Shown here: positions 6,332 through 60,218 of the stretch, in pieces
Numbering within the stretch: the first letter of the stretch is position 1
Layout: each line of letters starts with the position of its first letter
Origin: an uncultured Elusimicrobia bacterium
GTDB lineage: Bacteria > Elusimicrobiota > Elusimicrobia > 2-01-FULL-59-12
DNA: 64,000 nt
Assembly: GCA_963702895.1 (NCBI GenBank)
Contig: OY969767.1
Location: forward strand, 2,176,001-2,240,000
Direction: 5' to 3'
Position numbers and translations under genes: made by a program
Notes under the pieces: generated by a model
Databases searched by the model: none
What the model was told of the DNA's origin: nothing
What the model saw: the letters and a program-made list of their open reading frames with translations, nothing else

Positions 6332-6570
6332 GATGGATCCCCCGCTGACGGCCGCGGGGGATGACGTCAGGGGTGGCTTATCGGATTATTTGGGAAGGGG
6401 CAAACAAGGAGAGCCGGAGACAGGATCCTTCACACTGCTGTCATCCCGGCATGTCGTTAGCCGGGATCCATCATGTCTTTCAAGCCGATGATAGACCCCG
6501 TCCGCCACACGGCAGGGCGGACGGCCCGCCGGGTGTCTGGAGGGCCGGCTTACGACCGCCGGGGTGACGG
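6332..6570. repeat. Cluster of GTCATCCC...GGGATCCA REP-like palindromes, one carrying a double-hairpin insertion
   Basis: tggatcccccg...cgggggatgac; gtcatcccggc...gccgggatcca; agaccccg[47 nt]...ccggggtgac. Confidence 0.75.
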
Positions 6571-6780: not shown

Positions 6781-6786
6781 AAATTC

Positions 6787-6882: not shown

Positions 6883-6886
6883 TATC

Positions 6887-8182: not shown

Positions 8183-8290
8183 AGCTGGGGATCGGGATCG
8201 TCCGCCACACATCCGGCGGACGAGCGCCTGATGTCTGGCGCTCGAACCGACGACCTGTCGCCAGACACCTGGCGACTGCTCTACCAACTG
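8183..8290 (-). pseudogene. Degenerate tRNA-Thr duplicate with hairpin insertions
   Basis: Colinear with the tRNA-Thr at 8333-8408, but with a 44-nt T-loop insertion, a replaced anticodon arm, and no 5' acceptor strand or CCA. Confidence 0.8.
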
Positions 8291-8332
8291 TCCCGTCCTC
8301 TATACTCGTCCGCCAGACGTCTGGCGAAAATA

Positions 8333-8408
8333 TGGAGCTGGGGATCGGGATTGAACCGACGACCTCCTCCTTACCAAGGAGGTGCTCTACCAACTGAGCT
8401 ACCCCAGC
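8333..8408 (-). tRNA. tRNA-Thr (GGT)
   Basis: GCTGGGG TAGCTCAGTTGGTAGAGC A CCTCC TT GGT AA GGAGG...GGTTCAATCC...CCCCAGC T CCA. Confidence 0.96.
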
Positions 8409-8647: not shown

Positions 8648-8654
8648 CTCAAAG

Positions 8655-8865
8655 TGGAGCGGGTGATGGGAATCGTCCGCCACACACCTGGCGGACGAGC
8701 GCCCGTTGTGTGGCGCTCGAACCCGCTATGCGCTTAAGCGGGTGACCGGAATCGAACCGGCGTGTGCAGCTTGGAAGGCTGCCGTTCTACCATTGAACTA
8801 CACCCGCACCCGCTTAAGCGCATGCAGCTTGGAAGGCTGCCATTCTACCATTGAATTACTCCCGC
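8655..8865 (-). pseudogene. Interrupted outer tRNA-Gly (TCC)
   Basis: 5' half with TCC anticodon at about 8821-8865; 3' half with CCA at 8655-8727 carrying a 44-nt T-loop insertion; the halves are separated by a nested intact tRNA-Gly. Confidence 0.75.
8737..8807 (-). tRNA. tRNA-Gly (TCC), CCA not encoded
   Basis: GCGGGTG TAGTTCAATGGTAGAAC G GCAGC CT TCC AA GCTGC ACAC GCCGG TTCGATT CCGGT CACCCGC T. Confidence 0.92.
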
Positions 8866-9036
8866 TCAAGCGCGCCGAAGCAGCTTGCTCACCACCGAGA
8901 CTCTGGCGGGGCCACCATCGCCCCCGCTAAAAAACAGGAGAGCGAAGGTCGGTCCAGTGACGCACCATACGCACCCCTGAGGGGCTTGCGTATGGCCATC
9001 ATCCAGAGGAACAGGAACTGATGGTCGGACCGATGG

Positions 9037-9056
9037 TACCATTGAACTACACCCGC
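9037..9056 (-). pseudogene. 20-nt 5' fragment of tRNA-Gly
   Basis: GCGGGTGTAGTTCAATGGTA, identical to the first 20 nt of the intact tRNA-Gly. Confidence 0.75.
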
Positions 9057-9169
9057 AAAATCGAATGAAACCTACCACGACGGCATGGCTTTGAAAACGA
9101 ATAGAAGAAGTTCCCTGCCGGCGGGTGAAACTATATCAAATCAGAAGGACGGCGCTCACGAGTCGAATG

Positions 9170-9260
9170 GGAGTATCGGGGTATCGGGGTCACGGCCAAC
9201 GGCGTGAATGGTCAATGGTCAATAGTGAATGGTTGAGAAAACTATTGACCATTCACTATT
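9170..9260. repeat. 8-mer (GTATCGGG) and inverted 7-mer (AATGGTC / GACCATT) repeats downstream of the array
   Basis: gagtatcggggtatcgggg; aatggtc aatggtc aatagtg aatggt ... actatt gaccatt cactatt. Confidence 0.7.
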
Positions 9261-9275
9261 TACGACGTCTGCCGT

Positions 9276-16000: not shown

Positions 16001-16938
16001 GGCCATGTCACGCTGCAGGCGCCATTGTCCGCCGGGTACCACGGCTCGTTATGCGCGACGTTGTTTTTGATGACTTGCCGGGTGCCATAGGTGTCCATGA
16101 CGGCATGCCCGGCATAGGCCATGTAATTGTCTTCGATGGTGATGTGGTGGTTGGCCCCTGTGGTGCAGTTGACACCAGCGCCGCCGCCACAGCTTCCGTT
16201 GGGATAGCCCACACGCACCGCGTCGCCGCCTTCGGAAATGGATGTTCCATTACATCCGCCGCCGGCCGCTAACTTATAGAAGGTATTGTGATGCACCCAA
16301 AGGTCGCTGACATAGCACCGGAAGTCCGTTCCGCCAATGCAGGCCTCCGCCATCGTAAAGTTCCCGCCGCGGAAGGGAGAGGTGACATTGCGAAAAGTGC
16401 ATCTGGCGACTTCAACATGATGAGCGCCGTTGCGAATTAAGTAGTCGGAAAAGTCGGTGAAAAGGAGGCCGTCGATTCGGATATAGCTCTGATTAATCTG
16501 CAACCCCCACATGCGCGTCCCGTAAGTCCCTTTGAGTTCGGGGGTTTCGCCGGGAGCGTTTTTGAAGGTGATCCAGGCGCTCGATGTCCCCGAACGAGCG
16601 GGGAGCAGCGCAGTTGCGTATAGGGTGGAGAAGGAATACGTACCTCCTTTCAAATAAACCCAATCGCCTGCGCTGGCATTGGAATTGGCGGTCCCCAACG
16701 AACAATAGTTGCTCGCGGGATCGCTGGCGCTCTGGCAGCTCGCCCAAGAGGATGTCCCCGTTGGGCTCACCCAGTAGGTGGCCGCCTGAACGGCCAACGG
16801 CGAAAATAGAAAATAGACAATAGCAGCAACATACAGACGCGGCGACGCGGTGACGCGGTGACTCGGTGATGTAGCTGTTTCTCCGTATCGGACGCTCCCC
16901 GTGTCTGCGTGTCCCCGTGTCCCCGTGTCGCTTCTCAT
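13054..16938 (-). CDS. G10: two-module secreted beta-helix protein with CTD
   Basis: 1294 aa; ATYWVSPTG module ending PDIGAHEF, SCSQADVQAA module, Ig-like domain, CTD. Confidence 0.9.
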   Translation of the reverse strand: MRSDTGTRGHADTGSVRYGETATSPSHRVTASPRLYVAAIVYFLFSPLAVQAATYWVSPTGTSSWASCQSASDPASNYCSLGTANSNASAGDWVYLKGGTYSFSTLYATALLPARSGTSSAWITFKNAPGETPELKGTYGTRMWGLQINQSYIRIDGLLFTDFSDYLIRNGAHHVEVARCTFRNVTSPFRGGNFTMAEACIGGTDFRCYVSDLWVHHNTFYKLAAGGGCNGTSISEGGDAVRVGYPNGSCGGGAGVNCTTGANHHITIEDNYMAYAGHAVMDTYGTRQVIKNNVAHNEPWYPADNGACSVTWPATQYDNPAYNGSYSHRVWQITDSFGRDGLYNLVENNRLGFAGPNPNNDGADSLALASSRNIVRYNAFYGSMNNGLMPKYGPTGHGSIGGLNNRIFSNTVYKNGYGYPYYHTCTHSTCPEPQMGIHFYYPSLNTGNVIKNNIVYGNARAVLYGGLDIQDSVGNTVVSNWLTPNGDPLFVSPDLTQPSSLTLPDLQLRTNSPAIDSGTFLTQANGAGSNSVTLVVRDAQYFQDGTWGAAMAQGVTLFPDWIAVGRVTNVAQIRSIDYATNRVTLAAPLSWEDGAPIWLYRDSGGRQVLYGSAPDIGAHEFVRPPITAASCSQADVQAAVSRAERGDTISVPAGSCTWSNETSCGGRNTLLCLTQGIKLQGGIGGPTTITLNGPSDHGQIAYVPDETAQNNDEEFEITGFTLDGHSLSKHRGLLYIENGSSSKVISNIKIHHNTFRNSDHTGVSINGPVYGVAYLNHFINVVYSLRTMGRDAVSWALVPREYGTGTNFFIEDNTISFTRAMEGGLTDSGQGAPGYVYRYNTTDLANAAGLSGLWVNHGLQSMATSPGYTCPSGCGNSNCSPSVAGSCNPNQDSCEQWSTIKSEYYGNKIVNSPDFSTWMAHRGSWQLMFYNSSDSSYAKPYYAQYSCDSCQSPASPAYSQHVQNSYVWANYGGGILRPMTKGSDYCADAAVGSPYTITENVDYWNHQAGFNGTVGMGCGTLAARPATCTPGVGYWATDQSCTDLTGRVGASPASPISGTLYQCTAPNTWSTSYTPYPYPHPLRTGLPPPPPGGGNTPPAVPDLRGVEGRYFRISGEIAIPEVARATGFQWELVPRAGGAPIFQSMAGQVAAQGIVHGAPMATTAPRFQLGALNLAPGDYTLRVQATNAYGTSAWASAWVRLVSANLDSVRVYPNPWRSDRHSTRSVTFDSLTVNTEIKIFTVSGHHVKTLPTSSSQVTWDLTNESGDRVASGIYVYHLKAEGGAKMTGKVVVIK

Positions 16939-19900
16939 TTAATCACCACCACTTGCCCCGTCTTTTTGGCTCCGCCTTCCGCCTTCAGGTGATAGACGTA
17001 GATCCCCGACGCCACCCGGTCCCCGCTTTCATTCGTCAGGTCCCAGATGACGGAGCTGCTTGAGCTCGGCAGCGTCTTCACATGATGCCCCGAGACCGTG
17101 AAAATCTTGATCTCGGTATCGACGGTGAGGCTGTCAAAAGTGACCGACCTCGCCGCGTGCCGGTCGCTCCGCCAGGGGTTGGGATAGACGCGGACAGCGG
17201 AAAGGTCCGCTGGCACCAGGGTCACGTTGGCGCTCGCGGGGATCGAAACGCGACCGGCAGTATCGGTCGCGGTGACGGTAATCTGATAGTTCCCGGGGAC
17301 CAGACCATAGGGCGCAAGGTTTGCCACTCCGCTGCTTGTGCTGAAATTGGCCGTCGGTGCTCGGGCGATTGTCCCCGCGGACGTTCCGGGCGCCGGCAGC
17401 GCGCCTGCCGGGAGCGGGGTGACCGACCAGCTGAAGCTGCGAATCTCATGCCCCGGAGCGCTCGCGGTGATCTGAGCGTTCACGGGCAGAACCGTCCTCC
17501 CCCCTAAATCCAACGAGACATAGATTAAGGGCGCCTCACAAACCAGGGGCTTTCCGCCTGGGCCCAAAGTGTTGAAAGCAATGGAGAACGGCGTTGTGGT
17601 CGAATGATTGTAATAGGCGTCAATGCACTTGACGTAGTAGGTGTAGACCCTATTACTCGCTAGCCCTGTAAGGGTTGTCGAGTGAGACGTGCCTCCCGAT
17701 GTTCCAAAAATCGTTGTATAACGATGAAAATCAAGGGCTGGATAGGCATCATATTTGCATGCCGCGGGCTCGTCGGTCACCACTGAAATCGTGGCGTAAG
17801 CATCCCCGATACACGTCGCGGTCCCTGATACAACCACGGGCGGTGTCACATCTTCGGGAGGCCCCAAGACCCCCGGAGCAGAAGGCGGCAGCGGTGTGGC
17901 AGGGTAAGGACAATTGGCCCCCTGGATAAACCCGCCTCGAACGCTGCCGCTGAAATCAATCCGTGTTTCATCCAGGGTGGCCAATTCCAACATTAAGGTA
18001 TTAAACCACCAACTGAGTTTTCTCTGGGGCGTGGAGGGATAGGACGGAAATCCAGCTCTCACGCTTTCGGTGATCCACGTCGTTTGAGCGGCAAGATCTC
18101 CGCCGAAGTATCCTGGGGCGAGTTTCTCGCTGGTAAAGGTCCTGGGGTCCCGATTCGTCCTGTGCCATCCGATAAAACCATACTTCGCGCACCGAGAAAA
18201 TTCATGAAACAAAGCCACAAAGGATTCGCCCTCGGTTCGAAAGGGCCCTTTCACAAAAGGACTTGAAAATTGATCGTTTTGTATTAAACCGTGAATTCCA
18301 AAAGCCACGAGGGCGGACACATCGGCGCAATGATTGAAATCATCGTATTCGATCGTTTGGTCTCTCAGACCAGAGGCATTAATCCCCGCGCCATAAGAGG
18401 GGGTCAGGCTTCTGGCATATTCAGAACTGTCACCCGCAAAATCACAGGAACTGTCATAGTCCGTTGGAGAAAGGAAGGATGAATCATAGCCAATCGTTCT
18501 CCTCCTATAAGTTGCGCCAACATCTCGGAGCGATCGGGTCAGTCTGATAAAGACCTCATGGACGCGGCGGCCGTCTCCCGTGATAGCCTTGTACCGCAAT
18601 AAAGGGGCCACAGCGAGTTCGGCCATCCAGCTGGAACACCAGGCATCCGTCCCTCCTTCCGAATGTTGTCCGGAGGAGTGGACAAAACAATTCTGCGGTG
18701 GGAAATTTTGCAAATTGATCGCTGTTAATTCCGCTTGATTGGTCGTGGTGATGTGCCGATACGCCGTGTTAAACATCTCCATGGCGGCTGTTCTGTATTC
18801 CGGCCTTTCGGTGAGCTCAAACCCATAAACCAGCCCTTCCATGCTGGTCGCCAGAAGCCGCTCGGTCCATAATCTATCGACTCCCCTCAAATGGCCCTGC
18901 CTGTAGGGCGTGACAAAATAAGGGTCCTCATACCACATTTGGGCCATATTCGACCCTGCTTCAAAAGCCGTCTCGTCCCCCGTCAACGCGTAATACTCGG
19001 CCACTCCCCTTAAATGGGAGTATTTGCTGTCTTGGGACGGCTTCCCTGTGAAATATCCCTTCCACACCCCCGTGGTGCCAATATGTTCTGCGAAATAGGA
19101 GCAGGCCCGCAGGGCATGACGGTAATAGCGAACATCGTCCAAATGAGAGTAGCCTGCGAGATAGGTGTCACACATATCGTAGAGCCAGCCCTCGTAGTTC
19201 GAAGCATCGTAGACGCTCCCAGGGTCTGGATTCATTTTATAGCCATCGCCATAGATCGAAGAATTTAGGAAGAGATCGAATTCATCAGAAATAAATCGGA
19301 GACCGGCGAGGTTGGATTTGCTGAGTAATTGTTGCCTGGACATTTGAGGCCCGAATATCCCCGAGGAGGCAAGATACCCTTCCGGATAGGTGGCCAGGAC
19401 TTTCGGCTCGCGGCCGGTCCATAAGGTCTTCTCTCTGACATTATTTTCCACAAAAGAATACGCAGTCCCATCAAAGGCGATGCTCCGGTCCACCACCTCG
19501 GCTTTTTCATCAGAAACAAAAGAGGTCTCACGAAATGGGGCCATCGTTGAACTGGTCGTTCCACCCGAATTCGGATTAATCACGACCATGACGGTGACAC
19601 TGTCCGAGCGCATTTGCGCCGCGGGGAATTGCAGCAAGAGCGACTTGATGCTGGTTCTATTCCCCGAAGCGTTAAAGTGATAGAGAATGGCTTTGGAGGA
19701 AACGTTCGTGATGGGGTCCCCGGAGGGATGCGCTTTGATTTTAACCTTGGCGGCGTCAAACAGGAGCCCTTCCTTGACTGGCAAACCAAACGATACGGTC
19801 GTCGCATCGCTTTGTAATTTCGTAAGACCGATTAAGACTTCTGTTTCGAAAGCGTAGACTGGGCTGCACAACAAAAAGCTTGCCGCGACGATGAGATGCC

Positions 19901-19940
19901 GAGCAACGGAGGGGTGCTTCGCTAAAAGAGGTCTGTTCAT
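16935..19940 (-). CDS. G9: secreted protein with probable YetA/PcRGLX-like N-terminus and helical-barrel core, plus CTD
   Basis: Signal peptide (LIVAASFLLCSPVYA); VSFGLPVKEG; YYALTGD helical repeats; CTD. Start uncertain (19940, 19952 or 19985); fold call is by eye. Confidence 0.8.
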   Translation of the reverse strand: MNRPLLAKHPSVARHLIVAASFLLCSPVYAFETEVLIGLTKLQSDATTVSFGLPVKEGLLFDAAKVKIKAHPSGDPITNVSSKAILYHFNASGNRTSIKSLLLQFPAAQMRSDSVTVMVVINPNSGGTTSSTMAPFRETSFVSDEKAEVVDRSIAFDGTAYSFVENNVREKTLWTGREPKVLATYPEGYLASSGIFGPQMSRQQLLSKSNLAGLRFISDEFDLFLNSSIYGDGYKMNPDPGSVYDASNYEGWLYDMCDTYLAGYSHLDDVRYYRHALRACSYFAEHIGTTGVWKGYFTGKPSQDSKYSHLRGVAEYYALTGDETAFEAGSNMAQMWYEDPYFVTPYRQGHLRGVDRLWTERLLATSMEGLVYGFELTERPEYRTAAMEMFNTAYRHITTTNQAELTAINLQNFPPQNCFVHSSGQHSEGGTDAWCSSWMAELAVAPLLRYKAITGDGRRVHEVFIRLTRSLRDVGATYRRRTIGYDSSFLSPTDYDSSCDFAGDSSEYARSLTPSYGAGINASGLRDQTIEYDDFNHCADVSALVAFGIHGLIQNDQFSSPFVKGPFRTEGESFVALFHEFSRCAKYGFIGWHRTNRDPRTFTSEKLAPGYFGGDLAAQTTWITESVRAGFPSYPSTPQRKLSWWFNTLMLELATLDETRIDFSGSVRGGFIQGANCPYPATPLPPSAPGVLGPPEDVTPPVVVSGTATCIGDAYATISVVTDEPAACKYDAYPALDFHRYTTIFGTSGGTSHSTTLTGLASNRVYTYYVKCIDAYYNHSTTTPFSIAFNTLGPGGKPLVCEAPLIYVSLDLGGRTVLPVNAQITASAPGHEIRSFSWSVTPLPAGALPAPGTSAGTIARAPTANFSTSSGVANLAPYGLVPGNYQITVTATDTAGRVSIPASANVTLVPADLSAVRVYPNPWRSDRHAARSVTFDSLTVDTEIKIFTVSGHHVKTLPSSSSSVIWDLTNESGDRVASGIYVYHLKAEGGAKKTGQVVVIK

Positions 19941-19991
19941 GGAATGGTTCATCCTTTCGAGAATTATTCTGTTAGTCTCATGCAACTACTA

Positions 19992-20018
19992 ACGACCAGG
20001 GCACGTCCCCCTGGTCGT
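19992..20018. terminator. 10-bp stem-loop directly after the G8 stop (possible attenuator or mRNA stabiliser)
   Basis: acgaccaggg-N7-ccctggtcgt; no good U-tract. Confidence 0.4.
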
Positions 20019-45185: not shown

Positions 45186-48043
45186 TTTATCACCACCACT
45201 TTCCCCGTCTTTTTGGCTCCGCCTTCGGCCTTCAGGTGATACACGTAGATCCCCGAGGCCACACGGTCGCCGCTTTCGTTCGTCAGGTCCCAGGTGACCG
45301 AGCTGCTTGAGGTGGGCAGCGTCTTCACGTGGTGCCCCGAGACTGTAAAGATCTTGATCTCGGTATCGATCGTGAGACTGTCAAAAGTGATGGATCTCGC
45401 CGCATGCCGGTCACTCCGCCAGGGGTTGGGATAGACCCGCACCTGATCGAGATTCGCCGAGACGAGCGTCACTTGGGCTGAAGCAGGCGAGGAAGCATTG
45501 CCCGCCGCGTCAAAGGCTGTGACCGTCACCACGTAAGGCCCGAGGTCCAGTCCCGCCGTGGCGAGATTGGCCTGGGGGGTGCGGGTGGTGAAGGAAGCCG
45601 AAGGTGCCGGCTGCGCTCTAGGCTCTAGGCTCGAGGCTCCAGGGGAAGAAGAAGTGCTGTTGCCTAGAGCTTGGAGCCTGGAGCCTGGAGCGACACTTAC
45701 AGGGGTGAAGGTCCAACTGAAATAGGCCGCGGGCGTCGCGCCGGTGTAACCTGCCGTGATCTGGGCGTTGACCGGCAGATACTCCGGCAGATTGAGCGTC
45801 GGCGTGGAGAGGCTCCCAGGCGGTGGAGGCGGTGGAGGGGGTGGAGGAGGTGGAGGAGGCGGCGAAGTCGCCGCCTGGGTCGTCGCGCTGGCCGCGGCCG
45901 AGAGCGCCGAGATATTCCCGGCCGCATCATAAGCGGTCACGCGGTAGCTGTAGGTGGTCGAAGCCGAAAGGCCCGTGCTCGCATAGGACGTGCCCGAGCT
46001 GACGCTCGAGATCCAGACCCCATTGCGATAAATGCCGTAGCCTGCCACCCCGACCGCATCGGTCGAGGCGGCCCAGCTAAGATTGATCGTAGTGGAAGAA
46101 ACGGCCACCGCCACCAGGCCCGTCGGCACCGAAGGGGGGGTCGTGTCCGGCGGAGGGGGTGCTCCACTTGTTGCGGCGACGTAGAGGGTTTTGCTCGCGT
46201 AAAGCGGGTAAACCCTCACGCCGAGCGCTCCGCCGCCCACAGAGCAAGTGTAAGGACTTGCGTTGTCGACCGTGGTCGGGATGCGGTCTTCATAGCAAAC
46301 CACGAACCGGACAAGCTCCGCATCGGAAGGCGTTACGGTCACCACCCCGCCCGACTGAGAATAGGTCGCGCTCAAGGTGTAGCCGCCCGCCTTGTAGGGA
46401 TACGCCCCGATGTCGGGTGTGGCATCGTGACCGAAGTACACCGCCTCCCCGTTGGCCCATGTGAAGGACGGCGTAACGGTGATGGCGTTTCCTGAGATAC
46501 TCACCACGGTCACGACGTCGGTGCCGACCGTGATCGTATCGCCCACCACCACATTGCCGCCATATTGCGTGATGGTCGTATCATCATCAGAAAAGTAGCT
46601 GGCGTCACCCACCATGAACGTCGTGCCCGTATTGTTGGCGGACGTGACCGTCGTGAGCGGACCACCTGCATTTCGTGCGGGTGAGCCAGACTGAAGCGTA
46701 AAATCTCGAGTTGCCGCATTGGTCACTAATGGATTCGTATTCCGGAGAGAATGCGCTTCGGCGTTGATTGTACTCGCGTAATTGATCGATCCGCCTATAT
46801 CGTAAAAAATATTGTAGTCATGCACGGCGGGAGTATCATCATAGACACCGACTGGATTCGTCCCTGGCCACCACGCTTGGTGCCAGATATTGTTCAAGAC
46901 CCCTCGGCCAGCCGCGACGTTACTACCACGGTCATAAGTGACATAATGCGAGGCATATGCGATGGTTTCGTGATAAATTTTGAGGAAAGCCTGTCCGTCC
47001 GCAAGCCCAAAACACTGCCCGCCTGCGTTGCCATTACTGGACCAGACGTTTCGCCGGAATATCGTATAGGCGTCCAAGCTGGCTGAATTGGTTTCGATAT
47101 TGGTACAGTGATGTTCACTTCCGGACTCATCGGCGTAGAAATTCCCCTCATACAGTGAGTGGCCCAAGCCAATAGAATCCTGACCGGATTGAATGAAATC
47201 GGTATGAGATGAAGGAGCCGCATTCACATTATGGCTATAGTTGTTCAGTAGCCTATTTCTTTGCCCAAAGAGATAGATGAAGTCAACCTCGGGGGTGTCG
47301 GATTCGTTATAGGCAATGACGTTGCTGTTGCCACGAACCTGAAAATCTTTGAATGCGGAATGCTTAATCACATTGCCGATAAAGAGACAGTTGTTGGATT
47401 GGTATAGCCTAGCTCCGTTGTCCGTTCTTATGGAATCTCCTTCAAAGTTCTGTATGGTGTTATTCCATATCTCAACATAATCAGCATTTTGCAGGTAGAT
47501 CCCATCGTTTCTGGTATTTCCGCCTTCGACGATAAAACCTATCACTCGAATCCAATCGCCAGTAATGACCCATCCGAAATTCGTCACAGACCCATCAGCC
47601 ACGAAGGTGATGTAGTTTCCGGCAGACCCCGAGCTACTGGCCGTGACTACCTCTGCGTAAGTGCCCGCCTGCACCCGGATCACATCTCCCGCCGCGACGT
47701 GATCGGCCGCCCAGTCGATGGTCCGCCACGCCCCGCCCGAGGTGTTCGTCAATCCGGTGTTGGTGTTGTTCCCATCGGTGCGGACATAATAGGTCGCCGC
47801 CTGCGCCGCCGGAGCAGCCAGCAGCAAGAGAAGGCTGTATCGGAGTAACGGGGTAACGGTGTATCGGAGTAACGTAGTAACGGTGTATCGGAGTAACGGA
47901 GTAACGGTGTATCGGGGTAACACCTCTAAGAGCGTAATGTGTTTACGTTGCTGTGACTCCGATACTCCGATACGCCCCGCCATCACATCGTTGGCGGGCC
48001 CGCCGTGATGTAGTGGCGGGCGATACGCCGATACGAAGTTCAC
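45182..48043 (-). CDS. G2: secreted protein (beta-helix, FN3, Ig-like, CTD)
   Basis: 953 aa; N-terminal module essentially identical to that of G8. Confidence 0.9.
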   Translation of the reverse strand: MNFVSAYRPPLHHGGPANDVMAGRIGVSESQQRKHITLLEVLPRYTVTPLLRYTVTTLLRYTVTPLLRYSLLLLLAAPAAQAATYYVRTDGNNTNTGLTNTSGGAWRTIDWAADHVAAGDVIRVQAGTYAEVVTASSSGSAGNYITFVADGSVTNFGWVITGDWIRVIGFIVEGGNTRNDGIYLQNADYVEIWNNTIQNFEGDSIRTDNGARLYQSNNCLFIGNVIKHSAFKDFQVRGNSNVIAYNESDTPEVDFIYLFGQRNRLLNNYSHNVNAAPSSHTDFIQSGQDSIGLGHSLYEGNFYADESGSEHHCTNIETNSASLDAYTIFRRNVWSSNGNAGGQCFGLADGQAFLKIYHETIAYASHYVTYDRGSNVAAGRGVLNNIWHQAWWPGTNPVGVYDDTPAVHDYNIFYDIGGSINYASTINAEAHSLRNTNPLVTNAATRDFTLQSGSPARNAGGPLTTVTSANNTGTTFMVGDASYFSDDDTTITQYGGNVVVGDTITVGTDVVTVVSISGNAITVTPSFTWANGEAVYFGHDATPDIGAYPYKAGGYTLSATYSQSGGVVTVTPSDAELVRFVVCYEDRIPTTVDNASPYTCSVGGGALGVRVYPLYASKTLYVAATSGAPPPPDTTPPSVPTGLVAVAVSSTTINLSWAASTDAVGVAGYGIYRNGVWISSVSSGTSYASTGLSASTTYSYRVTAYDAAGNISALSAAASATTQAATSPPPPPPPPPPPPPPPGSLSTPTLNLPEYLPVNAQITAGYTGATPAAYFSWTFTPVSVAPGSRLQALGNSTSSSPGASSLEPRAQPAPSASFTTRTPQANLATAGLDLGPYVVTVTAFDAAGNASSPASAQVTLVSANLDQVRVYPNPWRSDRHAARSITFDSLTIDTEIKIFTVSGHHVKTLPTSSSSVTWDLTNESGDRVASGIYVYHLKAEGGAKKTGKVVVIK

Positions 48044-51000
48044 TTAATCACCACCACTTTCCCCGTCTTCTTGGCTCCGCCTTCCGCCTTCAGGTGATAG
48101 ACATAGATCCCCGAAGCCACCCGGTCGCCGCTTTCGTTCGTCAGGTCCCAGGTCACTGAGCTGCTTGAGCTCGGTAGCGTCTTCACGTGGTGTCCCGAGA
48201 CCGTGAAGATCTTAATCTCGGTATCGATCGTGAGACTGTCAAAAGTGACGGACCTCGCCGCGTGCCGGTCGCTCCGCCAGGGATTGGGATAGACCCGGAC
48301 CTGATCGAGATTGGCTGACACCAGCGTCACCTGCGCCGATGCCGGTGAAGAGGCGCTGCCGGAGGCGTCATGGGCCGTGACGGTCACGAGGTATGTTCCC
48401 AGGTCAAGATTCTGCGCGGCAAGGCTTGCGACCGTTGAAGCGGTGGTGAAAGAGGCGGAGGGAGCTCCGAAAGCGCGTCCGACGTCCGACGTGCGACGTC
48501 CAACGTCAACTCCAGACGTTTCATATGAGCCGCTTAGACGTCGGACCCGCCACACATCGGGCGGGCGCCTGTCGTGTGGAGCCTCGGACGTCGGACGGCT
48601 CACCGGTTCGCCGGTTCGGCCCACCTGAGTGAACGTCCAACTGAAATACGCCGGCGCCACAGACCCGCCGTAGCCGGCGCGGATCTCGGCGTTCACCGGC
48701 AGATAAGCCGGCAAGTTCAAGGTCGGGGTGGCCAGGCCGCCTGGTGGCGGAGGGGGCGGCGGAGGCGGAGGGGGTGGCAGGCCCGTTCTGAGCGGGTGGG
48801 GATAAGGATAAGGCGTATAGGAGGTTGACCAGGTGTTGGGCGCGGTGCATTGGTAGAGCGTGCCGGAAATCGGACTTGCCGGATTGGTACCGACCCGACC
48901 GGTGAGATCCGTGCAGGCTTGATCCGTGGCCCAATAGGCAACACCGGGCGTGCAGGTCGCCGGACGCGCGGCCAGCGTGCCGCACCCCATCCCCACAGTC
49001 CCATTGAAACCCGCCTGATGATTCCAATAATCAACATTTTCCGTAATGGTGTAAGGCGATCCGACCGCGGCATCGGCGCAGAAGTCCAAGCCTTTGGTCA
49101 TGGGGCGGAGAATTCCCCCACCGTAGTTCGCCCATACATACGAATTTTGAACATGCTGGGAGTACGCCGGGGAAGCGGGGCTTTGACAAGAATCACATGA
49201 ATACTGTGCATAGTACGGCTTGGCATAAGAAGAATCACTGGAGTTGTAAAACATTAACTGCCAACTACCCCTATGCGCCATCCAGGTGGAAAAATCCGGG
49301 CTATTGACGATCTTATTCCCGTAGTACTCGGATTTGATCGTGGACCATTGCTCACAAGAATCCTGATTAGGGTTGCAAGAACCGGCCACCGAGGGGCTGC
49401 AATTGGAATACCCGCAACAGCTATAACCCGGGCTCACTGACATGCTTTGCAATCCGTGATTGACCCACAGGCCCGAAAGGCCGGTGGCATTGGCCAGATC
49501 CGTGGTGTTGTACCGATAGACATAACCCGGCGCGCCCTGCCCGTGGTCGGTCAGTCCGCCCTCTATGGCCTGGGTAAAACGGATGGTGTTGTCCTCGATG
49601 AAGAAATTCGTCCCGGTCCCATACTCCCTCGGAACTAGCGCCCAGGAGACCGCGTCTCTCCCAAACGTTCTGATCACGTAGCCGACATTGATGAAATGAT
49701 TCAAATAGGCCACGCCATAAACCGGCCCGCTCACAACCACACCCGTATGTAAGGAATTCTGAAACGTGTTGTGGTGGATTTTGATATTGGACATGACTTT
49801 GGAGGTGCTTCCATTCCCTACGTAGAGAAGGCCTTGGTGCTTCGAAAGTGACTGGCCGTCCAAGGTAAATCCCGTGATTTCAAACGCCTCATTATGGGTC
49901 TGTGCCGTTGCATCCGGAATATAAGCGATCTGACCATGGTCGGAGGGTCCGTTCAGGGTAATCGTGGTGGGCCCCCCGATGCCACCCTGCAATTTGATGC
50001 CTTGGGTGAGGGAAAGCAATCGATTATACCCGCCGTAAGAAGTCTCGTTTGACCAGGTGCATGAACCGGCCGGAACGATGATCGTGTCCCCTCGTTCCGC
50101 AAGGTTCACAGCGGCCTGGACATCCGCCTGCGAACAGCTGGCAGCGCTGATCGGAGGCCGAACAAATTCATGGGCTCCCATATCCGGCGCCGTACCATTA
50201 AGCACCTCCCGGCCGCTCGAATCCTTATACAACCACACCGGCGCGTTGGCCGCCCAGCTGAGCGGGGATTTCAGCGTGATCGTGTTGGCCGCATAGTTGA
50301 TCGAGGCGATTGGCGCGCGATTGCCCGCACTCCCCACGGCAATCCAGTCCGCGAAGAAATTCACGTTCCGCGCCAGGTCGGACCCCCACGACCCATCCTG
50401 AAAATATAACGCATCGTTCACTTTCACGGTGATCGAGTTGCTTCCGGAGCCTACGGTGGTCGTTAAAGGGGCGCCCTGATCGATCGCAGGCGAATCCGAT
50501 TGAAGGCGTAAATCGGGCAGGGTCTTGCTGGTGGGATCGTCGAGAGAAGGATTGAGGAATTTAGGGTTGCCTTTGACGGTTGTCCAGTTATTTTCGATGG
50601 TCGCGATCCCCGGATAATCGGCTGGATTCAGTCCCGTGTCGACCGTGATATCAAGGCCCGTGTAGAGAGTCCCGGGATAGAGGTCCGGCAAACTCAGGTA
50701 GTACGAAAAATTATCGTAGACCAGATTGTTTTTGAGGACATTTTCGAGGGTCGCCGAATAAAGGGTGATCCCGGCGAGCTTCCCGGGGCATGTCGAGCAT
50801 CCCGGCTGCGTCTTCTGCATGTAAGGGTAGGTCCACCCGTTGTGGAAAAAGGTGTTGTTGTAGACCCGGTTGTTGGTCGAGCCGGTCCCGCCCGCGCCAA
50901 TCTTGCCGTAGGAGGCGTACTTAAAATAGAGTCCCGCCTGCTGGCCATTGTAAATGGAGTTGAACCGGACGATGTTTTTCGGCGCCGCCAGAGACAACAC

Positions 51001-52014
51001 AGCCTCCCCCGGATTGTTCGGGTTGGCGGAAGAATGGCCCATTCGATTACTCTCCATCAACACATAAGTCCCGTCGCGTCCGAAATCTTCCGACAACTGC
51101 ATGCCTCGGTGACCGTATTTCCCGTTCGGCATGGGCGGATAGCCGCAGGTGCCGCCAGAAGTGTCCGGTATCCAGCCTTCGTTGTGTAGCACGTTGTTGC
51201 GGAATACGGTGAAGGCGCCGTAATTGTCAAAGAGCGCGTGCCCCGCGTACTCCAGCATATTGTCTTCGATCGTGTTGAAGTTGTTATCACCGGTATAGGG
51301 TGGGTACGACGGATTCGGCGGGTCCCCGATGCGCACCAGATCACGCCCTTCATAGCATTGGGTTGGATCATTCGCGGTGCGGTGGGCCTTGGAAAACGTA
51401 TTGTGGTGGACCCAGTTGTGGGTGCTGTAACAACTCATCACGCTCCCGCCGCTGCACCAGCTGCCGATGAAAAAGCCTTGGACAACATCCTCGCCGGTCT
51501 CGCTCCGGAAAACGCAGCGGGCGACTTCGTTATAGCTGGACGAATGGATGATCATGGCCCAGCGCGCGAGGTTGAGAAACGTGATCCCATCGACCTTGAT
51601 GTATCGATTTTTCGAAAGCACCAGACCCCAGCCGCAGTCAAGGCATCCAGTCCCTTTGATCACCGGCGTTTCACCCGGAGCGGCGGCGAAGGTAATGCGG
51701 GAATTCTTGTCCGCGCCGGAATTCGCCGGTGAAATGCCGGCCTGGCCCGGAGTGGACAATAAATACGTGCCTCCTTTGAGGTAAACCAGATCGCCCGCAA
51801 CCGCCTTGGCATTGGCGGTGGGCAGTGAACAATAGTTGCTTCCCGGATCGCTCTCGCTCTGGCAGCTCGCCCAGGAGGATGTCCCCGTTGGGCTCACCCA
51901 ATAGGTCGCCGCTCTAAGCTCACGGCTGCCCGCAAACAACAGCCCCGCGCATAAAGCGGCGCCGAACACCCAACGGGTGCCTGACCTATGAGATTGAGAT
52001 GTCAATTGGCGCAT
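48040..52014 (-). CDS. G1: two-module secreted beta-helix protein with CTD (first gene of the array)
   Basis: 1324 aa; conventional signal peptide; paralog of G10. Confidence 0.9.
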   Translation of the reverse strand: MRQLTSQSHRSGTRWVFGAALCAGLLFAGSRELRAATYWVSPTGTSSWASCQSESDPGSNYCSLPTANAKAVAGDLVYLKGGTYLLSTPGQAGISPANSGADKNSRITFAAAPGETPVIKGTGCLDCGWGLVLSKNRYIKVDGITFLNLARWAMIIHSSSYNEVARCVFRSETGEDVVQGFFIGSWCSGGSVMSCYSTHNWVHHNTFSKAHRTANDPTQCYEGRDLVRIGDPPNPSYPPYTGDNNFNTIEDNMLEYAGHALFDNYGAFTVFRNNVLHNEGWIPDTSGGTCGYPPMPNGKYGHRGMQLSEDFGRDGTYVLMESNRMGHSSANPNNPGEAVLSLAAPKNIVRFNSIYNGQQAGLYFKYASYGKIGAGGTGSTNNRVYNNTFFHNGWTYPYMQKTQPGCSTCPGKLAGITLYSATLENVLKNNLVYDNFSYYLSLPDLYPGTLYTGLDITVDTGLNPADYPGIATIENNWTTVKGNPKFLNPSLDDPTSKTLPDLRLQSDSPAIDQGAPLTTTVGSGSNSITVKVNDALYFQDGSWGSDLARNVNFFADWIAVGSAGNRAPIASINYAANTITLKSPLSWAANAPVWLYKDSSGREVLNGTAPDMGAHEFVRPPISAASCSQADVQAAVNLAERGDTIIVPAGSCTWSNETSYGGYNRLLSLTQGIKLQGGIGGPTTITLNGPSDHGQIAYIPDATAQTHNEAFEITGFTLDGQSLSKHQGLLYVGNGSTSKVMSNIKIHHNTFQNSLHTGVVVSGPVYGVAYLNHFINVGYVIRTFGRDAVSWALVPREYGTGTNFFIEDNTIRFTQAIEGGLTDHGQGAPGYVYRYNTTDLANATGLSGLWVNHGLQSMSVSPGYSCCGYSNCSPSVAGSCNPNQDSCEQWSTIKSEYYGNKIVNSPDFSTWMAHRGSWQLMFYNSSDSSYAKPYYAQYSCDSCQSPASPAYSQHVQNSYVWANYGGGILRPMTKGLDFCADAAVGSPYTITENVDYWNHQAGFNGTVGMGCGTLAARPATCTPGVAYWATDQACTDLTGRVGTNPASPISGTLYQCTAPNTWSTSYTPYPYPHPLRTGLPPPPPPPPPPPPGGLATPTLNLPAYLPVNAEIRAGYGGSVAPAYFSWTFTQVGRTGEPVSRPTSEAPHDRRPPDVWRVRRLSGSYETSGVDVGRRTSDVGRAFGAPSASFTTASTVASLAAQNLDLGTYLVTVTAHDASGSASSPASAQVTLVSANLDQVRVYPNPWRSDRHAARSVTFDSLTIDTEIKIFTVSGHHVKTLPSSSSSVTWDLTNESGDRVASGIYVYHLKAEGGAKKTGKVVVIK

Positions 52015-58262: not shown

Positions 58263-59528
58263 TTATTGAATCTGCAGGCTGCGCATGATCTTCTCGCAGT
58301 CGACGACGTACTGCAGGTAGAGCTCGCCCGGCATCTGGCACATGAGGGCGTATCCGGCGCGCTCACGCACGAGAAGCAAGGTCCGGAACCGCATGTAGTC
58401 CCCGCCATATTGCCACAGAAGCCCGTGGCCGGCCGGATAATCCACATCACGGACGTTGGCTTCCTGGACGCCCCACTGGCGGGCGACTTGCTTGGCGAAA
58501 TCTTGGACGCCCATTTCCTCCGGCAGCCGGAAGCGCTGCAGGATTCCCCTCACTTCGGCTTCGGGCCCATTAAAAGACACCAGGGTCTGCAGTCGCCGGT
58601 TGTCGAGCTTCCACCCTTGGGGCACCTTGACCGAGAGGCCAAATGACTTGTTCTCGTAGGTGTTCCCGGTGATGATGCCGCGCTCCGGGGAATCGCCGCG
58701 GGGGAGCTTGGCCACCATGGCCTGGTATTTGTCGCGGTTGTAGCCAAGCGGCAGCCCGGATTGATTGATCGCTCCAATCCACCGGTGGGATTTCGCGCGG
58801 CGGTCCGTTGTGTCCGGGTGAGTTTTCCAATAGGGGCTGATGCGCTGGGCGGCTTGTTCCTCCTTTTCGATCTTGTCCAGGCGCTCAAAAAAGGTGTAAG
58901 AGGCTTCCGGGTCGTAGCCGGCCCGGGCGGCGTACACCACGCCGTAGCGGTCCGCCTCGATCTCGTTCTTTCGGCCATAGCCGAGGAGGTAGAGGTTTTC
59001 GTAGACGCTCGCCGCCTGGGCCAGGGCGAGTGCAGCTTCGCCGGCGCCGGCCACCATCCCTCCCACAACGCCCAGCGCGGTGAGCGTCCCCAGGAGCCCC
59101 GCGGTTTGGAGCATCTCAATGCCGTGCCAGGCGGCGATATGCGTGATTTCGTGGCCCAGCACGATCGCGAGTTCCGCCTCGTCGGCAATTTCCATCAGCA
59201 GGCCCCGCGTGACAAACACGAAGCCGCCGGGCACGGCGAAGGCGTTCAGGATATCGGTATCGAGGATTGTGAAATCATAGGGGAGGTCCGGCCGGTCGGA
59301 GGCTTTGGCCACGCGCTGGCCGATCTGGTCGAGATAAATCTGCCACTCGAGGTCTTTGTAGCTGCCATACTCCTTGACGATCTGCTCTTTGGTCTTGCGG
59401 CCGATTTCAAGTTCTGTCTTTTGGGAGATGAACTTCACCTGGCGCTGCTTCGTCACATAATTTTTGGCGCAGGCGGACAGGCCGCAGCAAAGGACAACCA
59501 GCAGCAACAGCTTGGGGGCGTTCCTCAC
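58263..59528 (-). CDS. M48 family metallopeptidase lipoprotein
   Basis: Lipobox LSAC; NAFAVPGG, LGHEITH, EIEAD, THP; start placed at GTG 59528. Confidence 0.9.
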   Translation of the reverse strand: MRNAPKLLLLVVLCCGLSACAKNYVTKQRQVKFISQKTELEIGRKTKEQIVKEYGSYKDLEWQIYLDQIGQRVAKASDRPDLPYDFTILDTDILNAFAVPGGFVFVTRGLLMEIADEAELAIVLGHEITHIAAWHGIEMLQTAGLLGTLTALGVVGGMVAGAGEAALALAQAASVYENLYLLGYGRKNEIEADRYGVVYAARAGYDPEASYTFFERLDKIEKEEQAAQRISPYWKTHPDTTDRRAKSHRWIGAINQSGLPLGYNRDKYQAMVAKLPRGDSPERGIITGNTYENKSFGLSVKVPQGWKLDNRRLQTLVSFNGPEAEVRGILQRFRLPEEMGVQDFAKQVARQWGVQEANVRDVDYPAGHGLLWQYGGDYMRFRTLLLVRERAGYALMCQMPGELYLQYVVDCEKIMRSLQIQ

Positions 59529-59560
59529 AAATTCAGTCCTCACACACTCACAAACTCGGG

Positions 59561-59643
59561 TGTCATCCCCCCCGGCTGTAAGGGGGGGATCCATCATGTT
59601 GTCTAAGGGCACCTGTGGATCCCGGCTTTCGCCGGGATGACAG
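59561..59643. repeat. REP-like pair (GTCATCCC...GGATCCA / TGGATCCC...GGGATGAC)
   Basis: Two inverted palindromic units with a short spacer. Confidence 0.8.
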
Positions 59644-59685
59644 CTCAAAGAGTCTATAAGTTTGTGAGCGTCCCTTGTGTGTAGG

Positions 59686-59946
59686 TTAATCTTCGAGGGA
59701 GATTTCGATGCCACCCAGGCGGGACGCGACGAGGTTGTAGATATAGGCCATAAGCGCATTCACGAGGGCTCCGACCACACCATACAAAATTGGGGCGAGG
59801 ACGAGCGTCACCACACCTTCTAGGAATTTCTTATCGAGGACCGACGCGATCATAAGGACAAAGCCGACCAAAAGACCGGCAACAGCCCCCAGCACGAGCG
59901 ACATTTTGAACACCGACATCACGCCAATTGAGCTTAACGATTTCAT
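59686..59946 (-). CDS. Small two-TM membrane protein (DUF3566-like)
   Basis: GGAGGA RBS; SIGVMSVFK...YIYNLVASRLGGIEI. Confidence 0.8.
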   Translation of the reverse strand: MKSLSSIGVMSVFKMSLVLGAVAGLLVGFVLMIASVLDKKFLEGVVTLVLAPILYGVVGALVNALMAYIYNLVASRLGGIEISLED

Positions 59947-60010
59947 GAGTTCCTCCTTCGCGTTTCGCAAGATTTTGGATAGTTTACACATTTTGTGCCG
60001 CAACTGCCAG

Positions 60011-60218
60011 ACGGCTTGGGGACGTTCCTCACGGTCTCACGCCAGTTGTCATCCCGGCGAAAGCCGGCCCTCCACACAACCGGCGGGCCGTCCGCCCTGC
60101 CGTGTGGCGGACGGGATCCATCAATCCGATTTGATGCTCTGATGGATCCCCCCCTTACAACCGGGGGGGATGACACTCAAGGAAGTGCGTGAGATCGTGA
60201 GGAACGTCCCCAAGCCGT
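60011..60218. repeat. MITE/REPIN-like composite: long IR enclosing a REP pair
   Basis: Perfect 23-bp IR 60011-60033 / 60196-60218, extending to about 32 bp with one mismatch. Confidence 0.75.

What the first reader, a model, noticed from the sequence alone, without database searches (positions are those of the whole stretch)
60064..60114. 44-47 nt double-hairpin micro-insertion at YCGR sites, with empty and filled alleles in the same window
Seen: the empty REP GTCATCCCGGCGAAAG-CCGG-GATCCA (reverse strand, about 59617-59642) versus the filled copy GAAAG-CCGG-[CCCTCC ACACAACC GGCGGG]-CCG-[TCCGCC CTGCCGTGT GGCGGA]-CGG-GATCCA. The same architecture occurs at 6498-6548 (CCGG, 47 nt) and in two tRNA T-loops, 8198-8245 and 8673-8720 (TCGA, 44 nt). 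The internal and terminal trinucleotides match the target (CCG/CGG at CCGG, TCG/CGA at TCGA), so target bases extend both stems. Inferred: a tiny mobile or enzymatically written element that uses fold-back or template-switch synthesis rather than a classical target duplication.
Basis: partly seen in the sequence, partly recalled or inferred. Interest (0 to 1): 0.78.

Follow-up and report, generated by a model that had tools for sequence, protein, structure and literature searches.

The report
Hairpin-pair repeat with mirrored target copy
A tiny gene-less DNA unit made of two GC-rich hairpins has been inserted many times into other hairpins (REP repeats and the T-loops of leftover tRNA pieces) of one family of uncultured Elusimicrobiota, each time leaving one to three target bases copied backwards between the hairpins and forwards after them.

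Summary
All four sites have the stated architecture, and the motif is far above chance (4 in the window vs 0.10 expected). The genome holds 62 hairpin pairs in one fixed order, against 1 in a control and 0 in the opposite order.

Corrections:
- The two "tRNA T-loops" lie in truncated tRNA-like stubs behind intact tRNA-Thr and tRNA-Gly genes.
- "Alleles" are paralogous copies.
- Targets are not only YCGR. T is CG, CA, GG, CGG, GGA, a single G/C, or nothing.

The layout is T-hairpinA-rc(T)-hairpinB-T. Both flanks fit in 37 of 45 unique pairs with 1-3-nt linkers (26 of 28 non-palindromic); shifted controls give 0 and 1.

A REP family gives a nested series of empty and filled copies, with inserts of 36, 47, 48, 89-91 and 130 nt. 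This shows repeated insertion.

The family occurs only in one Elusimicrobiota family among those searched. It does not co-occur with Y1/RAYT, RT or Ku genes.

Best reading: a REP-dimer-like, non-autonomous element inserted by template switching or fold-back copying. The mechanism is inferred. This scan had already noted the two-hairpin repeat elsewhere in this genome.

The parts
60068..60114 (+). 47-nt insert. Hairpin A is CCCTCC.acacaacc.GGCGGG (60068-60087). Linker CCG (60088-60090). Hairpin B is TCCGCC.ctgccgtgt.GGCGGA (60091-60111). Second copy of target CGG (60112-60114). The first CGG is at 60065-60067.
60048..60123 (+). Host REP GTCATCCCGGCGAAAGCCGG | GATCCATCA, split by the insert. It is one arm of a larger palindromic composite (60016-60214) that holds a second, inverted REP and outer inverted repeats.
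   Evidence: read directly; REP family: 48 uninterrupted copies
59617..59643 (-). Empty copy of the same REP (GTCATCCCGGCGAAAGCCGGGATCCAC).
6498..6547 (-). The same 47-nt doublet in a REP, seen in reverse: CCG, TCCGCC.acacggcag.GGCGGA (6501-6521), CGG, CCCGCC.gggtgtct.GGAGGG (6525-6544), CCG.
6440..6473 (+). Empty REP, the inverted partner of the filled REP at 6489-6575 (a REPIN-like pair with one arm filled).
8199..8244 (-). 44-nt doublet in the T-loop of a Thr-like tRNA stub: CG, TCCGCC.acacatcc.GGCGGA (8201-8220), CG, AGCGCC.tgatgtct.GGCGCT (8223-8242), CG.
8186..8300 (-). Thr-like tRNA stub. It has part of the D region, a T arm and the acceptor 3' strand, but no acceptor 5' strand. Its anticodon arm is replaced by the single hairpin GTCGCC.agacacct.GGCGAC at 8257-8276.
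   Evidence: read against the intact gene; searches do not call it a tRNA
8309..8328 (.). Single near-palindromic hairpin TCCGCC.agacgtct.GGCGAA between tRNA-Thr and its stub.
8333..8408 (-). Intact tRNA-Thr(GGT). Its T-loop is the uninterrupted counterpart of the stub's; it differs at one base (TTCAATC vs TTCG..ATC).
8674..8719 (-). 44-nt doublet in the T-loop of a Gly-like 3' stub (8655-8735): CG, TCCGCC.acacacct.GGCGGA (8676-8695), CG, AGCGCC.cgttgtgt.GGCGCT (8698-8717), CG.
8737..8807 (-). Intact tRNA-Gly(UCC), flanked by the Gly-like 3' stub (8655-8735) and a Gly-like 5' stub (about 8808-8870).
48546..48583 (+). A relative of the doublet. The 38-nt span shown holds the left copy of T (CC) and a 36-nt insert that keeps the reading frame: CGCC.acacatcg.GGCG, GG, CGCC.tgtcgtgt.GGAG, CC. 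It sits at the tip of a larger hairpin of GACGTCG-type repeats inside the 1324-aa frame 48040-52014 (-).

Best explanation
This is a lineage-specific family of gene-less, REP-dimer-like elements.

The module is a 20-nt hairpin: 6-bp arms of the form NNCG[C/A]C and an 8-nt loop A-S-A-C-D-N-C-N. Two different modules are always laid down as an inverted pair, so the conserved half of each loop faces outward.

The pair is written into DNA that is itself hairpin-forming:
- REP stems;
- the middle or an arm of an earlier pair;
- the T-loop, after position 57, of non-functional tRNA stubs.

Most likely this happens by copy-choice synthesis:
1. A 3' end stops at the target.
2. It copies a hairpin module.
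3. It snaps back on that hairpin and copies the last 0-3 target bases (T) in reverse, giving rc(T).
4. It copies a second module and snaps back again, regenerating T.
5. With T at its tip it re-pairs with the original template.

The result is T-hairpinA-rc(T)-hairpinB-T. The same product arises if both 3' ends of a break are tailed in this way and then anneal through T/rc(T).

Shown: the anatomy, the T rule, nesting, the habitats and the lineage restriction.
Inferred: the polymerase steps and the source of the modules.
For: Fixed order: 62 F-R pairs, 0 R-F, 1 in the reversed-genome control.

T rule: both flanks equal rc(linker) in 37 of 45 unique pairs with 1-3-nt linkers, and in 26 of 28 with non-palindromic linkers. 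Flanks shifted by 3 or 6 nt give 0 and 1 of 45. By eye, 10 of 12 further Elusimicrobiota loci fit.

The linker follows the site, not the hairpins. At the same T-loop position it is CG in TTCGA loops and TG in TTCAA loops. The TG cases use at least five arm combinations that also occur with CG.

Where an empty copy exists, the net gain is hairpinA + rc(T) + hairpinB + T:
- the Phe T arm against its tandem copies, exactly 44 nt;
- REP inserts of 36, 47 and 48 nt;
- second- and third-level inserts of 89-91 and 130 nt.

Arms are perfectly paired in 82 of 114 hairpins, although there are over a dozen arm sequences, 28 arm pairs and 44 loops. That fits the 3' arm being copied from the 5' arm.

The two hairpins of a pair are not copies of each other: 57 matches against 69.5 expected, and identical arms in 2 of 41.

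No transposase-type gene tracks the family.

Short fold-back inverted insertions at breaks are documented in yeast (PMC11724301, abstract read).
Against: - No step of the mechanism is observed.
- No polymorphic site was found in reads.
- No orthologous empty/filled pair was found in a relative.
- The origin of the conserved module (arms and loop positions 1, 3, 4, 7) is unexplained by pure fold-back. A template or a sequence-reading protein is still needed.
- Eight of 57 unique pairs have no linker and 4 have 4-nt linkers. Three pairs with a GC linker and swapped arms break the rule.
- The 15 three-nt cases belong to one REP family and are not independent.
- Several identical or near-identical pairs in different stubs could have moved by gene conversion through the conserved T-arm flanks (1598604 vs 2001192).
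- G000 has no Ku, so the break-repair version would need another end-joining route.
Confidence: 0.45

Rival explanations
1. Single-strand transposition by an HUH/Y1 enzyme (IS200/IS605- or RAYT-like). The two hairpins would be the left and right ends. The central linker would be a guide that base-pairs with the target and with the element's own 3' end, so sub-lines with different guides land on matching targets.
For: In IS200/IS605 and REPs, short guide sequences next to the hairpin foot pair with the cleavage or target site (PMC6006769, passages read). REPINs are inverted REP pairs thought to be moved by RAYTs (PMC3116915, passages). The T/rc(T)/T layout fits a guide read in both directions.
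Against: G000 is one contig, 98% complete, and has the most copies. It has only a 23-bit, 55-position fragment of Y1_Tnp. Y1_Tnp occurs in 29 of 41 relatives regardless of the doublets. Ten Y1-like genes in G001, G004, G005 and G007 are not flanked by these hairpins; one hairpin lies 1.4 kb from one gene. The insertion point in T-loops is constant while the linker changes between CG and TG. A guide alone would find CA or CG anywhere. There is no conserved 5' tag.
Confidence: 0.2
2. There is no dedicated insertion process. A few founder pairs spread passively with their hosts: REP copying, tandem duplication of tRNA stubs, and gene conversion through conserved T-arm flanks. The matching linkers would arise later by ordinary quasipalindrome correction that lengthens stems.
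For: Nineteen near-identical copies of one 47-nt type ride in one REP family. The Gln, Phe and Gly stubs are tandem duplicates carrying the same pair. Near-identical pairs occur in unrelated stubs. Stem-perfecting template switching is an established mutational route (recalled from the E. coli quasipalindrome literature; not read here).
Against: Later correction would have to insert, not just change, the second copy of T at every site. Five different T values agree with their empty sites. Twenty-eight arm pairs in 57 unique contexts and nested inserts at new positions need repeated new events. The CA/TG/CA pairs cannot come from CG pairs by conversion of flanks alone.
Confidence: 0.15
3. Classical cut-and-paste or copy-in by an unrecognised transposase that makes a 0-3-nt staggered cut (a true target duplication). 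The element's middle would merely look target-matched because only copies with long stems persist.
For: Direct repeats of T flank every pair. Yeast mitochondrial GC clusters of 42 nt are flanked by AG or ACT direct repeats (PMC4478555, passages).
Against: A fixed element cannot carry rc(T) for CG, CA, GG, CGG, GGA and G with the same hairpin arms. The shared linker can pair with only one stem at a time, so selection for stem length does not explain it. A duplication length that varies from 0 to 3 is unusual for one enzyme.
Confidence: 0.1
4. The hairpin pairs are selected structural signals, not selfish DNA. Examples would be protein-binding or RNA-processing and termination structures placed behind tRNA genes and in REPs.
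For: 54 of 163 class-1 hairpins lie within 300 nt of a tRNA gene (1.2% of the genome). Within 600 nt, 54 lie downstream, 9 upstream and 0 inside. 20 of 48 tRNA genes have one within 300 nt downstream. Loop positions 1, 3, 4 and 7 are nearly invariant. T-runs follow some stubs.
Against: The same pairs sit in REP stems, inside other pairs and, in a 36-nt in-frame form, inside coding frames. Stem mismatches are not of the G-U type expected for RNA selection. Same-family genomes lack them altogether: G004 at 98% complete has 0. No Rfam family matches.
Confidence: 0.1

Closest known systems
REP dimers / BIMEs / REPINs, including tightly spaced head-to-head REP dimers (Di Nocera et al. 2013, PMC3733652: abstract and sections 6 and 14 read; Bertels & Rainey 2011, PMC3116915: passages read)
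   Same: Both are short GC-rich extragenic palindromes in many copies, paired in inverted orientation. In both, the two partners tend to differ (heterodimers). Some published dimers are spaced only 1-2 bp apart. Some REPs sit inside other palindromes. CGTC-type REPs also lack a dedicated transposase.
   Different: There is no conserved GTAG or CGTC tag and no CCA-like tail. Arms are 6 bp with 8-nt loops, against 8-9-bp stems with 4-5-nt loops in the CGTC families. There is no RAYT partner in G000. The linker is the reverse complement of a duplicated target. The word 'duplication' does not occur in PMC3733652. The strong habitat in T-loops of tRNA stubs is not described there.
Yeast mitochondrial GC clusters (Wu & Hao 2015, PMC4478555: passages read) and fungal mitochondrial double-hairpin elements (Paquin et al. 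2000: recalled, not read)
   Same: Both are roughly 40-nt GC-rich hairpin units with sporadic distribution and short direct repeats at the flanks. In both, units merge and shuffle, turnover is rapid, and the enzyme is unknown.
   Different: Those elements live in organelle genomes and have fixed flanking repeats (AG or ACT). No inverted copy of the target between the hairpins is reported in the passages read. Here the host is a bacterial chromosome and T is variable.
Cyanobacterial small dispersed repeats SDR1-8 (Elhai et al. 2008: recalled; the paper is not held, and is only cited in PMC3116915)
   Same: As recalled, these are very small (21-27 nt) hairpin-forming repeats. They insert into existing hairpins and into each other and have no known enzyme.
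   Different: They differ in sequence, phylum and unit size. Whether SDRs show the T/rc(T)/T junction could not be checked.
Fold-back (snap-back) templated insertions and short-range template-switch mutations (PMC11724301: abstract read; PMC7954356: search listing only)
   Same: Short inverted copies of the bases next to a 3' end, made by self-priming. Pairs of inverted inserts also occur.
   Different: Those events copy local sequence only. Here a conserved foreign module is added each time.
IS200/IS605 ends and their guide-target pairing (PMC6006769: passages read)
   Same: Two subterminal hairpins of about 20 nt, and a few bases beside the hairpin that pair with the target.
   Different: Here there is no transposase gene within or near the unit. 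The hairpins are mirror-oriented rather than parallel, and the target appears duplicated.

Membership tests
REP / REPIN mobilised by RAYT | A Y1 (RAYT) transposase gene in the genome, itself flanked by the repeats | tested here: not met
   G000 has only a 23.3-bit partial match. Ten Y1-like loci in four relatives lack flanking family hairpins.
REP / REPIN mobilised by RAYT | A conserved unpaired tetranucleotide tag (GTAG or CGTC type) at the foot of the hairpin | tested here: not met
   The bases next to the arms vary with the target: CG, CA, GG, CGG, GGA, G.
REP / REPIN mobilised by RAYT | Short extragenic palindromes, many copies, mostly as inverted pairs | tested here: met
   62 F-R pairs against 0 R-F. 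Only 8 of 56 lie in open frames of 300 codons or more, which cover 75% of the genome.
MITE (miniature inverted-repeat transposable element) | Terminal inverted repeats matching those of a full-length IS, and a fixed-length target duplication | tested here: not met
   The duplicated T varies from 0 to 3 nt and is accompanied by its reverse complement. No parent IS was seen. No systematic IS search was made.
Mitochondrial GC cluster / double-hairpin element type | A two-hairpin GC-rich unit of about 40-60 nt with short flanking direct repeats and patchy presence among relatives | tested here: met
   Units of 36-48 nt. Present in 6 of 41 relatives, and missing from two of the three other genomes of the same genus. 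This is a likeness of kind only; there is no sequence relation.
IS200/IS605-like guide-directed insertion | Insertion next to a target that pairs with a guide in the element, without target duplication | tested here: inconclusive
   The T/rc(T)/T layout is compatible. Sequence alone cannot tell a duplication from an element-borne terminal T.
Functional tRNA gene with an intervening sequence | An otherwise complete cloverleaf that is the only gene for its anticodon | tested here: not met
   The carriers lack the acceptor 5' strand or more. 48 intact tRNA genes cover all 20 amino acids, and no class-1 hairpin lies inside any of them.
Any Rfam RNA family | A match at the gathering score | tested here: not met
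   Only the three tRNAs pass. Permissive scans give only far sub-threshold matches.

The most novel reading that the evidence does not exclude
An undescribed way of writing DNA. A lineage-specific activity, either an unknown enzyme or a peculiarity of this family's replication and repair, adds a templated 20-nt hairpin to 3' ends stalled or broken at structured DNA. Self-priming on each hairpin then copies the neighbouring target bases. This leaves a signature 'target, hairpin, mirrored target, hairpin, target'. The activity preferentially plugs the T-loops of displaced tRNA ends.
Probability: 0.3. Interest if true: 0.85.

Novelty: new variant of a known kind. Interest (0 to 1): 0.62.

Why it matters
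Very small palindromic repeats are common: REPs, cyanobacterial SDRs, mitochondrial GC clusters and double-hairpin elements. How the ones without a transposase move is an old open question.

This family leaves an unusually legible footprint. The footprint is a linker that mirrors a duplicated target of 0-3 nt. It has clean empty and filled copies and three levels of nesting in one complete genome.

That footprint separates copy-choice or fold-back models from cut-and-paste models. It also gives concrete, testable predictions.

The family also shows that discarded tRNA ends are a preferred landing place. This matters for annotating tRNA-like sequences in metagenome-assembled genomes.

Tried and rejected
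- Reads. Only weak holders were listed and no RNA holder was listed. Laying contigs of X1-X3 on window 1-20000 gave fragments, mostly other organisms' tuf and tRNA genes. The one joint near 8675-8767 joins T-arm-like sequences of other tRNAs. It says nothing about empty or filled states.
- Orthologous sites. Upstream of tuf, the relatives carry a long open frame that I took, by recall, for fusA; it is not the tRNA cluster. G002 shares the small gene at 59686-60003, but its intergenic DNA is unrelated and lacks the whole REP composite. G001 L017 against G000 1909440-1909740 aligns ambiguously, so I do not claim an empty/filled pair.
- 'Hairpin B is an inverted copy of hairpin A'. Rejected: the two are less alike than random pairs.
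- RNase P RNA. Its large insertions belong to a different hairpin family.
- Sorangium hits. These are 22-nt direct tandem arrays, not pairs with complementary arms. Single hits in other high-GC genomes show no paired arms.
- RT. The three copies in G000 are group II introns.
- Ku. Found only in G008.
- The Elhai 2008 paper is not held. One literature query was mis-formed and re-sent.
- Single hairpins. By eye, about 5 of 11 clear singles are flanked CG..CG. This is too few and too loosely defined to test the prediction that singles need a palindromic T.

Full report
WHAT IS THERE

The window is bases 2176001-2240000 of a single-contig genome of 2,724,539 bases and 57% G+C. Earlier notes of this scan, and the record titles of its relatives, place it in the Elusimicrobiota.

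At 60048-60123 a REP-type palindrome is split. It reads GTCATCCCGGCGAAAGCCGG, then 47 extra bases, then GATCCATCA. The extra bases are:
- hairpin CCCTCC.acacaacc.GGCGGG;
- CCG;
- hairpin TCCGCC.ctgccgtgt.GGCGGA;
- CGG.

An uninterrupted copy of the same REP lies at 59617-59643 on the other strand. The same 47-nt unit, reversed, sits in a REP at 6498-6547, next to an uninterrupted inverted partner at 6440-6473.

A 44-nt version (CG, hairpin, CG, hairpin, CG) lies at 8199-8244 and 8674-8719.

The motif TCCGCC-N7-10-GGCGGA occurs 4 times in the window against 0.10 expected. The genome holds 69 copies.

THE tRNA SITES ARE STUBS

ARAGORN and Rfam find intact tRNA-Thr(GGT) at 8333-8408 and tRNA-Gly(UCC) at 8737-8807. 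The two 44-nt units lie in truncated tRNA-like copies immediately downstream of these genes.

The Thr-like copy (8186-8300) keeps the T arm and the acceptor 3' strand of its neighbour. It has lost the acceptor 5' strand. Its anticodon arm is replaced by a single hairpin of the same family (8257-8276).

The genome has 48 uninterrupted tRNA genes for all 20 amino acids. No family hairpin lies inside any of them.

The stubs are common:
- 20 of 48 tRNA genes have a class-1 hairpin within 300 nt downstream.
- 54 of 163 such hairpins lie within 300 nt of a tRNA gene, a zone that is 1.2% of the genome.

Some stubs are tandem duplicates that start at the T stem and include the spacer (Phe, Gly-ccc, Gln). 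One Ser-like stub with three pairs lies beside a tyrosine-recombinase gene. That fits the recalled idea that many stubs are displaced ends left by integrating elements.

ANATOMY ACROSS THE GENOME

With 6-bp arms (at most 1 mismatch) and 8-9-nt loops, I define two hairpin types. An F hairpin has a loop that begins A[C/G]A[C/G]. An R hairpin has a loop that ends with the complement of that motif.

The genome has 62 F-then-R pairs spaced 0-5 nt apart. There are none in R-then-F order and 1 in a reversed-genome control. An earlier, stricter count gave 160 core matches against 11 in a Markov simulation, with 34 FR pairs against 1 RF.

I pooled G000 with loci from relatives and dereplicated by 8+8 flanking bases. 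This gave 57 unique pairs. My title filter failed and left out the 12 Elusimicrobiota loci; I read those by eye.

In the 57 unique pairs:
- Arms are perfectly complementary in 82 of 114 hairpins.
- There are more than a dozen arm sequences, 28 arm pairs and 44 loops.
- The 8-nt loop reads A, C/G, A, C, not-C, N, C, N. Positions 1, 3, 4 and 7 are nearly invariant.

The two hairpins of a pair are less alike than random pairs. They match at 57 variable loop positions against 69.5 +/- 5.3 expected, and share identical arms in 2 of 41 pairs. The second hairpin is therefore not a fold-back copy of the first. Published REP dimers also favour unlike partners (PMC3733652, section 14).

As single-stranded DNA, the units fold either as two hairpins or as one long imperfect hairpin.

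THE JUNCTION RULE

Write T for the bases just left of hairpin A. Of the 57 unique pairs, 45 have linkers of 1-3 nt. In 37 of these 45, the linker is the reverse complement of T and T recurs just right of hairpin B:
- 6 of 7 with 1-nt linkers;
- 17 of 23 with 2-nt linkers;
- 14 of 15 with 3-nt linkers.

For non-palindromic linkers the count is 26 of 28. Flanks taken 3 or 6 nt further out fit in 0 and 1 of 45.

The 15 three-nt cases are one REP family and are not independent. Eight pairs with no linker and four with 4-nt linkers were not scored. Three pairs with a GC linker and swapped arms do not fit.

By eye, 10 of the 12 further Elusimicrobiota loci fit; the two that fail are the GC type.

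The rule is not a property of particular hairpins. At the same place in the T-loop, after position 57:
- loops reading TTCGA carry CG..CG..CG;
- loops reading TTCAA carry CA..TG..CA.

The CA..TG..CA cases are Pro-like stubs in G000 and three different stubs in G007. They use arm combinations that also occur with CG.

Other sites give GG/CC/GG (G001), CGG/CCG/CGG and GGA/TCC/GGA (REP), and G/C/G (inside an earlier pair).

EVIDENCE FOR REPEATED INSERTION

One REP family has 48 uninterrupted copies. It also has copies with inserts of:
- 36 nt (1 copy);
- 47 nt (7 copies by that regex; 19 with a looser pattern on both strands);
- 48 nt (5 copies);
- 89 nt (2 copies);
- 90-91 nt (3 copies);
- 130 nt (1 copy).

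The longer inserts are the 47- or 48-nt unit with a second pair in its linker or in an arm. The 130-nt insert has a third pair inside the second.

The Phe tRNA T arm and its tandem copies differ by exactly 44 nt. In each such comparison the gain is hairpin A + rc(T) + hairpin B + T.

Pairs avoid coding DNA. Only 8 of 56 lie in open frames of 300 codons or more, which cover 75% of the genome. A 36-nt, frame-preserving form occurs inside long frames in 4 of 5 cases, one of them at window 48546-48583.

DISTRIBUTION AND CANDIDATE ENZYMES

The pair pattern was found in 6 of 41 relatives, all of one family:
- G000: 34
- G001: 20
- G007: 17
- G005: 11
- G006: 1
- G008: 1

The control pattern gave 0. 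In a sample of 401 genomes of the phylum it was found in 4, again only in that family.

It gave true relatives only in Elusimicrobiota MAGs.

Candidate genes do not track the family:
- Y1_Tnp is present in 29 of 41 relatives, whether or not they have doublets. G000 has only a fragment.
- Y1-like genes in relatives are not flanked by the hairpins.
- RVT_1 is in 4 of 11 family genomes. It was not found in G001 or G007. In G000 it belongs to group II introns.
- Ku is in 1 of 11.

So none of the tested gene families tracks the element. GIY-YIG was not tested.

HOW IT MOST LIKELY WORKS (INFERENCE)

The footprint is what self-priming gives. A 3' end that has just copied a hairpin module folds back on it. 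It then copies the adjacent unpaired target bases, giving rc(T). After a second module the same step regenerates T, and T can re-pair with the original template.

Equivalently, both 3' ends of a break could each be tailed with a module and extended by fold-back. They would then anneal through rc(T)/T.

This model explains:
- the one shared linker;
- the variable length of T;
- the independence of the two modules;
- the perfect arms.

It does not explain where the conserved module comes from. It also does not explain why loop positions 2, 5 and 6 of one hairpin vary among otherwise identical REP-borne copies.

The rivals are:
- guide-directed HUH transposition;
- passive spread followed by stem correction;
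- a classical transposase;
- a selected structural role.

Each is weighed in its own section.

COMPARISON AND NOVELTY

The closest described things are REP dimers (PMC3733652, PMC3116915) and mitochondrial GC clusters (PMC4478555). From memory, cyanobacterial SDRs and fungal double-hairpin elements are also close.

The family fails the tested defining features of RAYT-linked REPs: it has no tag and no RAYT.

My searches and the passages read turned up no description of a mirrored target copy between two hairpins, nor of T-loop plugging of tRNA stubs. The Elhai and Paquin papers could not be read, so a precedent there is not excluded.

This scan had already reported the two-hairpin repeat in tRNA-Gln stubs and in a riboswitch of the same genome. 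What is added here is the junction rule, the nested series, the distribution and the negative enzyme tests.

Noticed in passing
window 8655-8870 (-); also G000 2634170-2634433: An intact tRNA gene is bracketed by a 5' stub and a 3' stub of the same tRNA type (Gly-UCC here, Glu-CTC elsewhere). In the Gly case a 16-nt inverted repeat spans the junctions. The Gly gene lacks an encoded CCA while its 3' stub has one.
   Followed up: partly
window 8257-8276; G000 1652364, 1652564, 2455675; loci L063, L068, L019: In Thr-, Pro- and Gln-like stubs, and in other MAGs, the anticodon arm is replaced by a hairpin with GTCGCC arms. That arm type is rare in T-loop pairs. It is unexplained.
   Followed up: partly
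G000 206378, 1652479, 1653566, 2516632 and others: A sister family (class 2) has the same arms but 10-11-nt loops starting ACTA/ACTG. There are 20 pairs in F-R order and 0 in R-F order. Most have no linker. They often sit between C56 and G57 of T-loops, or in a D-loop.
   Followed up: partly
window 60016-60214 and 59510-59680: The small gene at 59686-60003 (-) is flanked by large composite palindromes: outer 18-nt inverted repeats enclosing two inverted REPs of different types.
   Followed up: no
G000 2516540-2517650: A tyrosine-recombinase gene lies next to a Ser-like tRNA stub that carries three hairpin pairs. It is about 15.7 kb from tRNA-Ser(TGA) at 2532323-2532412. This may be an integrated island.
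   Followed up: partly
loci L043-L108 (Sorangium genomes): Several Sorangium genomes carry direct tandem arrays of a 22-nt unit built around the palindrome GGCCAGACGTCTGGCC. That palindrome shares the AGACGTCT core of the single palindromic hairpins here.
   Followed up: no
G000 230277, 463860, 1962540: Three copies of a group II intron with a 507-aa reverse-transcriptase frame.
   Followed up: partly
window 8520-8650: A run of CTCTGCT-type heptamer repeats and a long hairpin (about 8437-8530) lie between the two tRNA loci.
   Followed up: no
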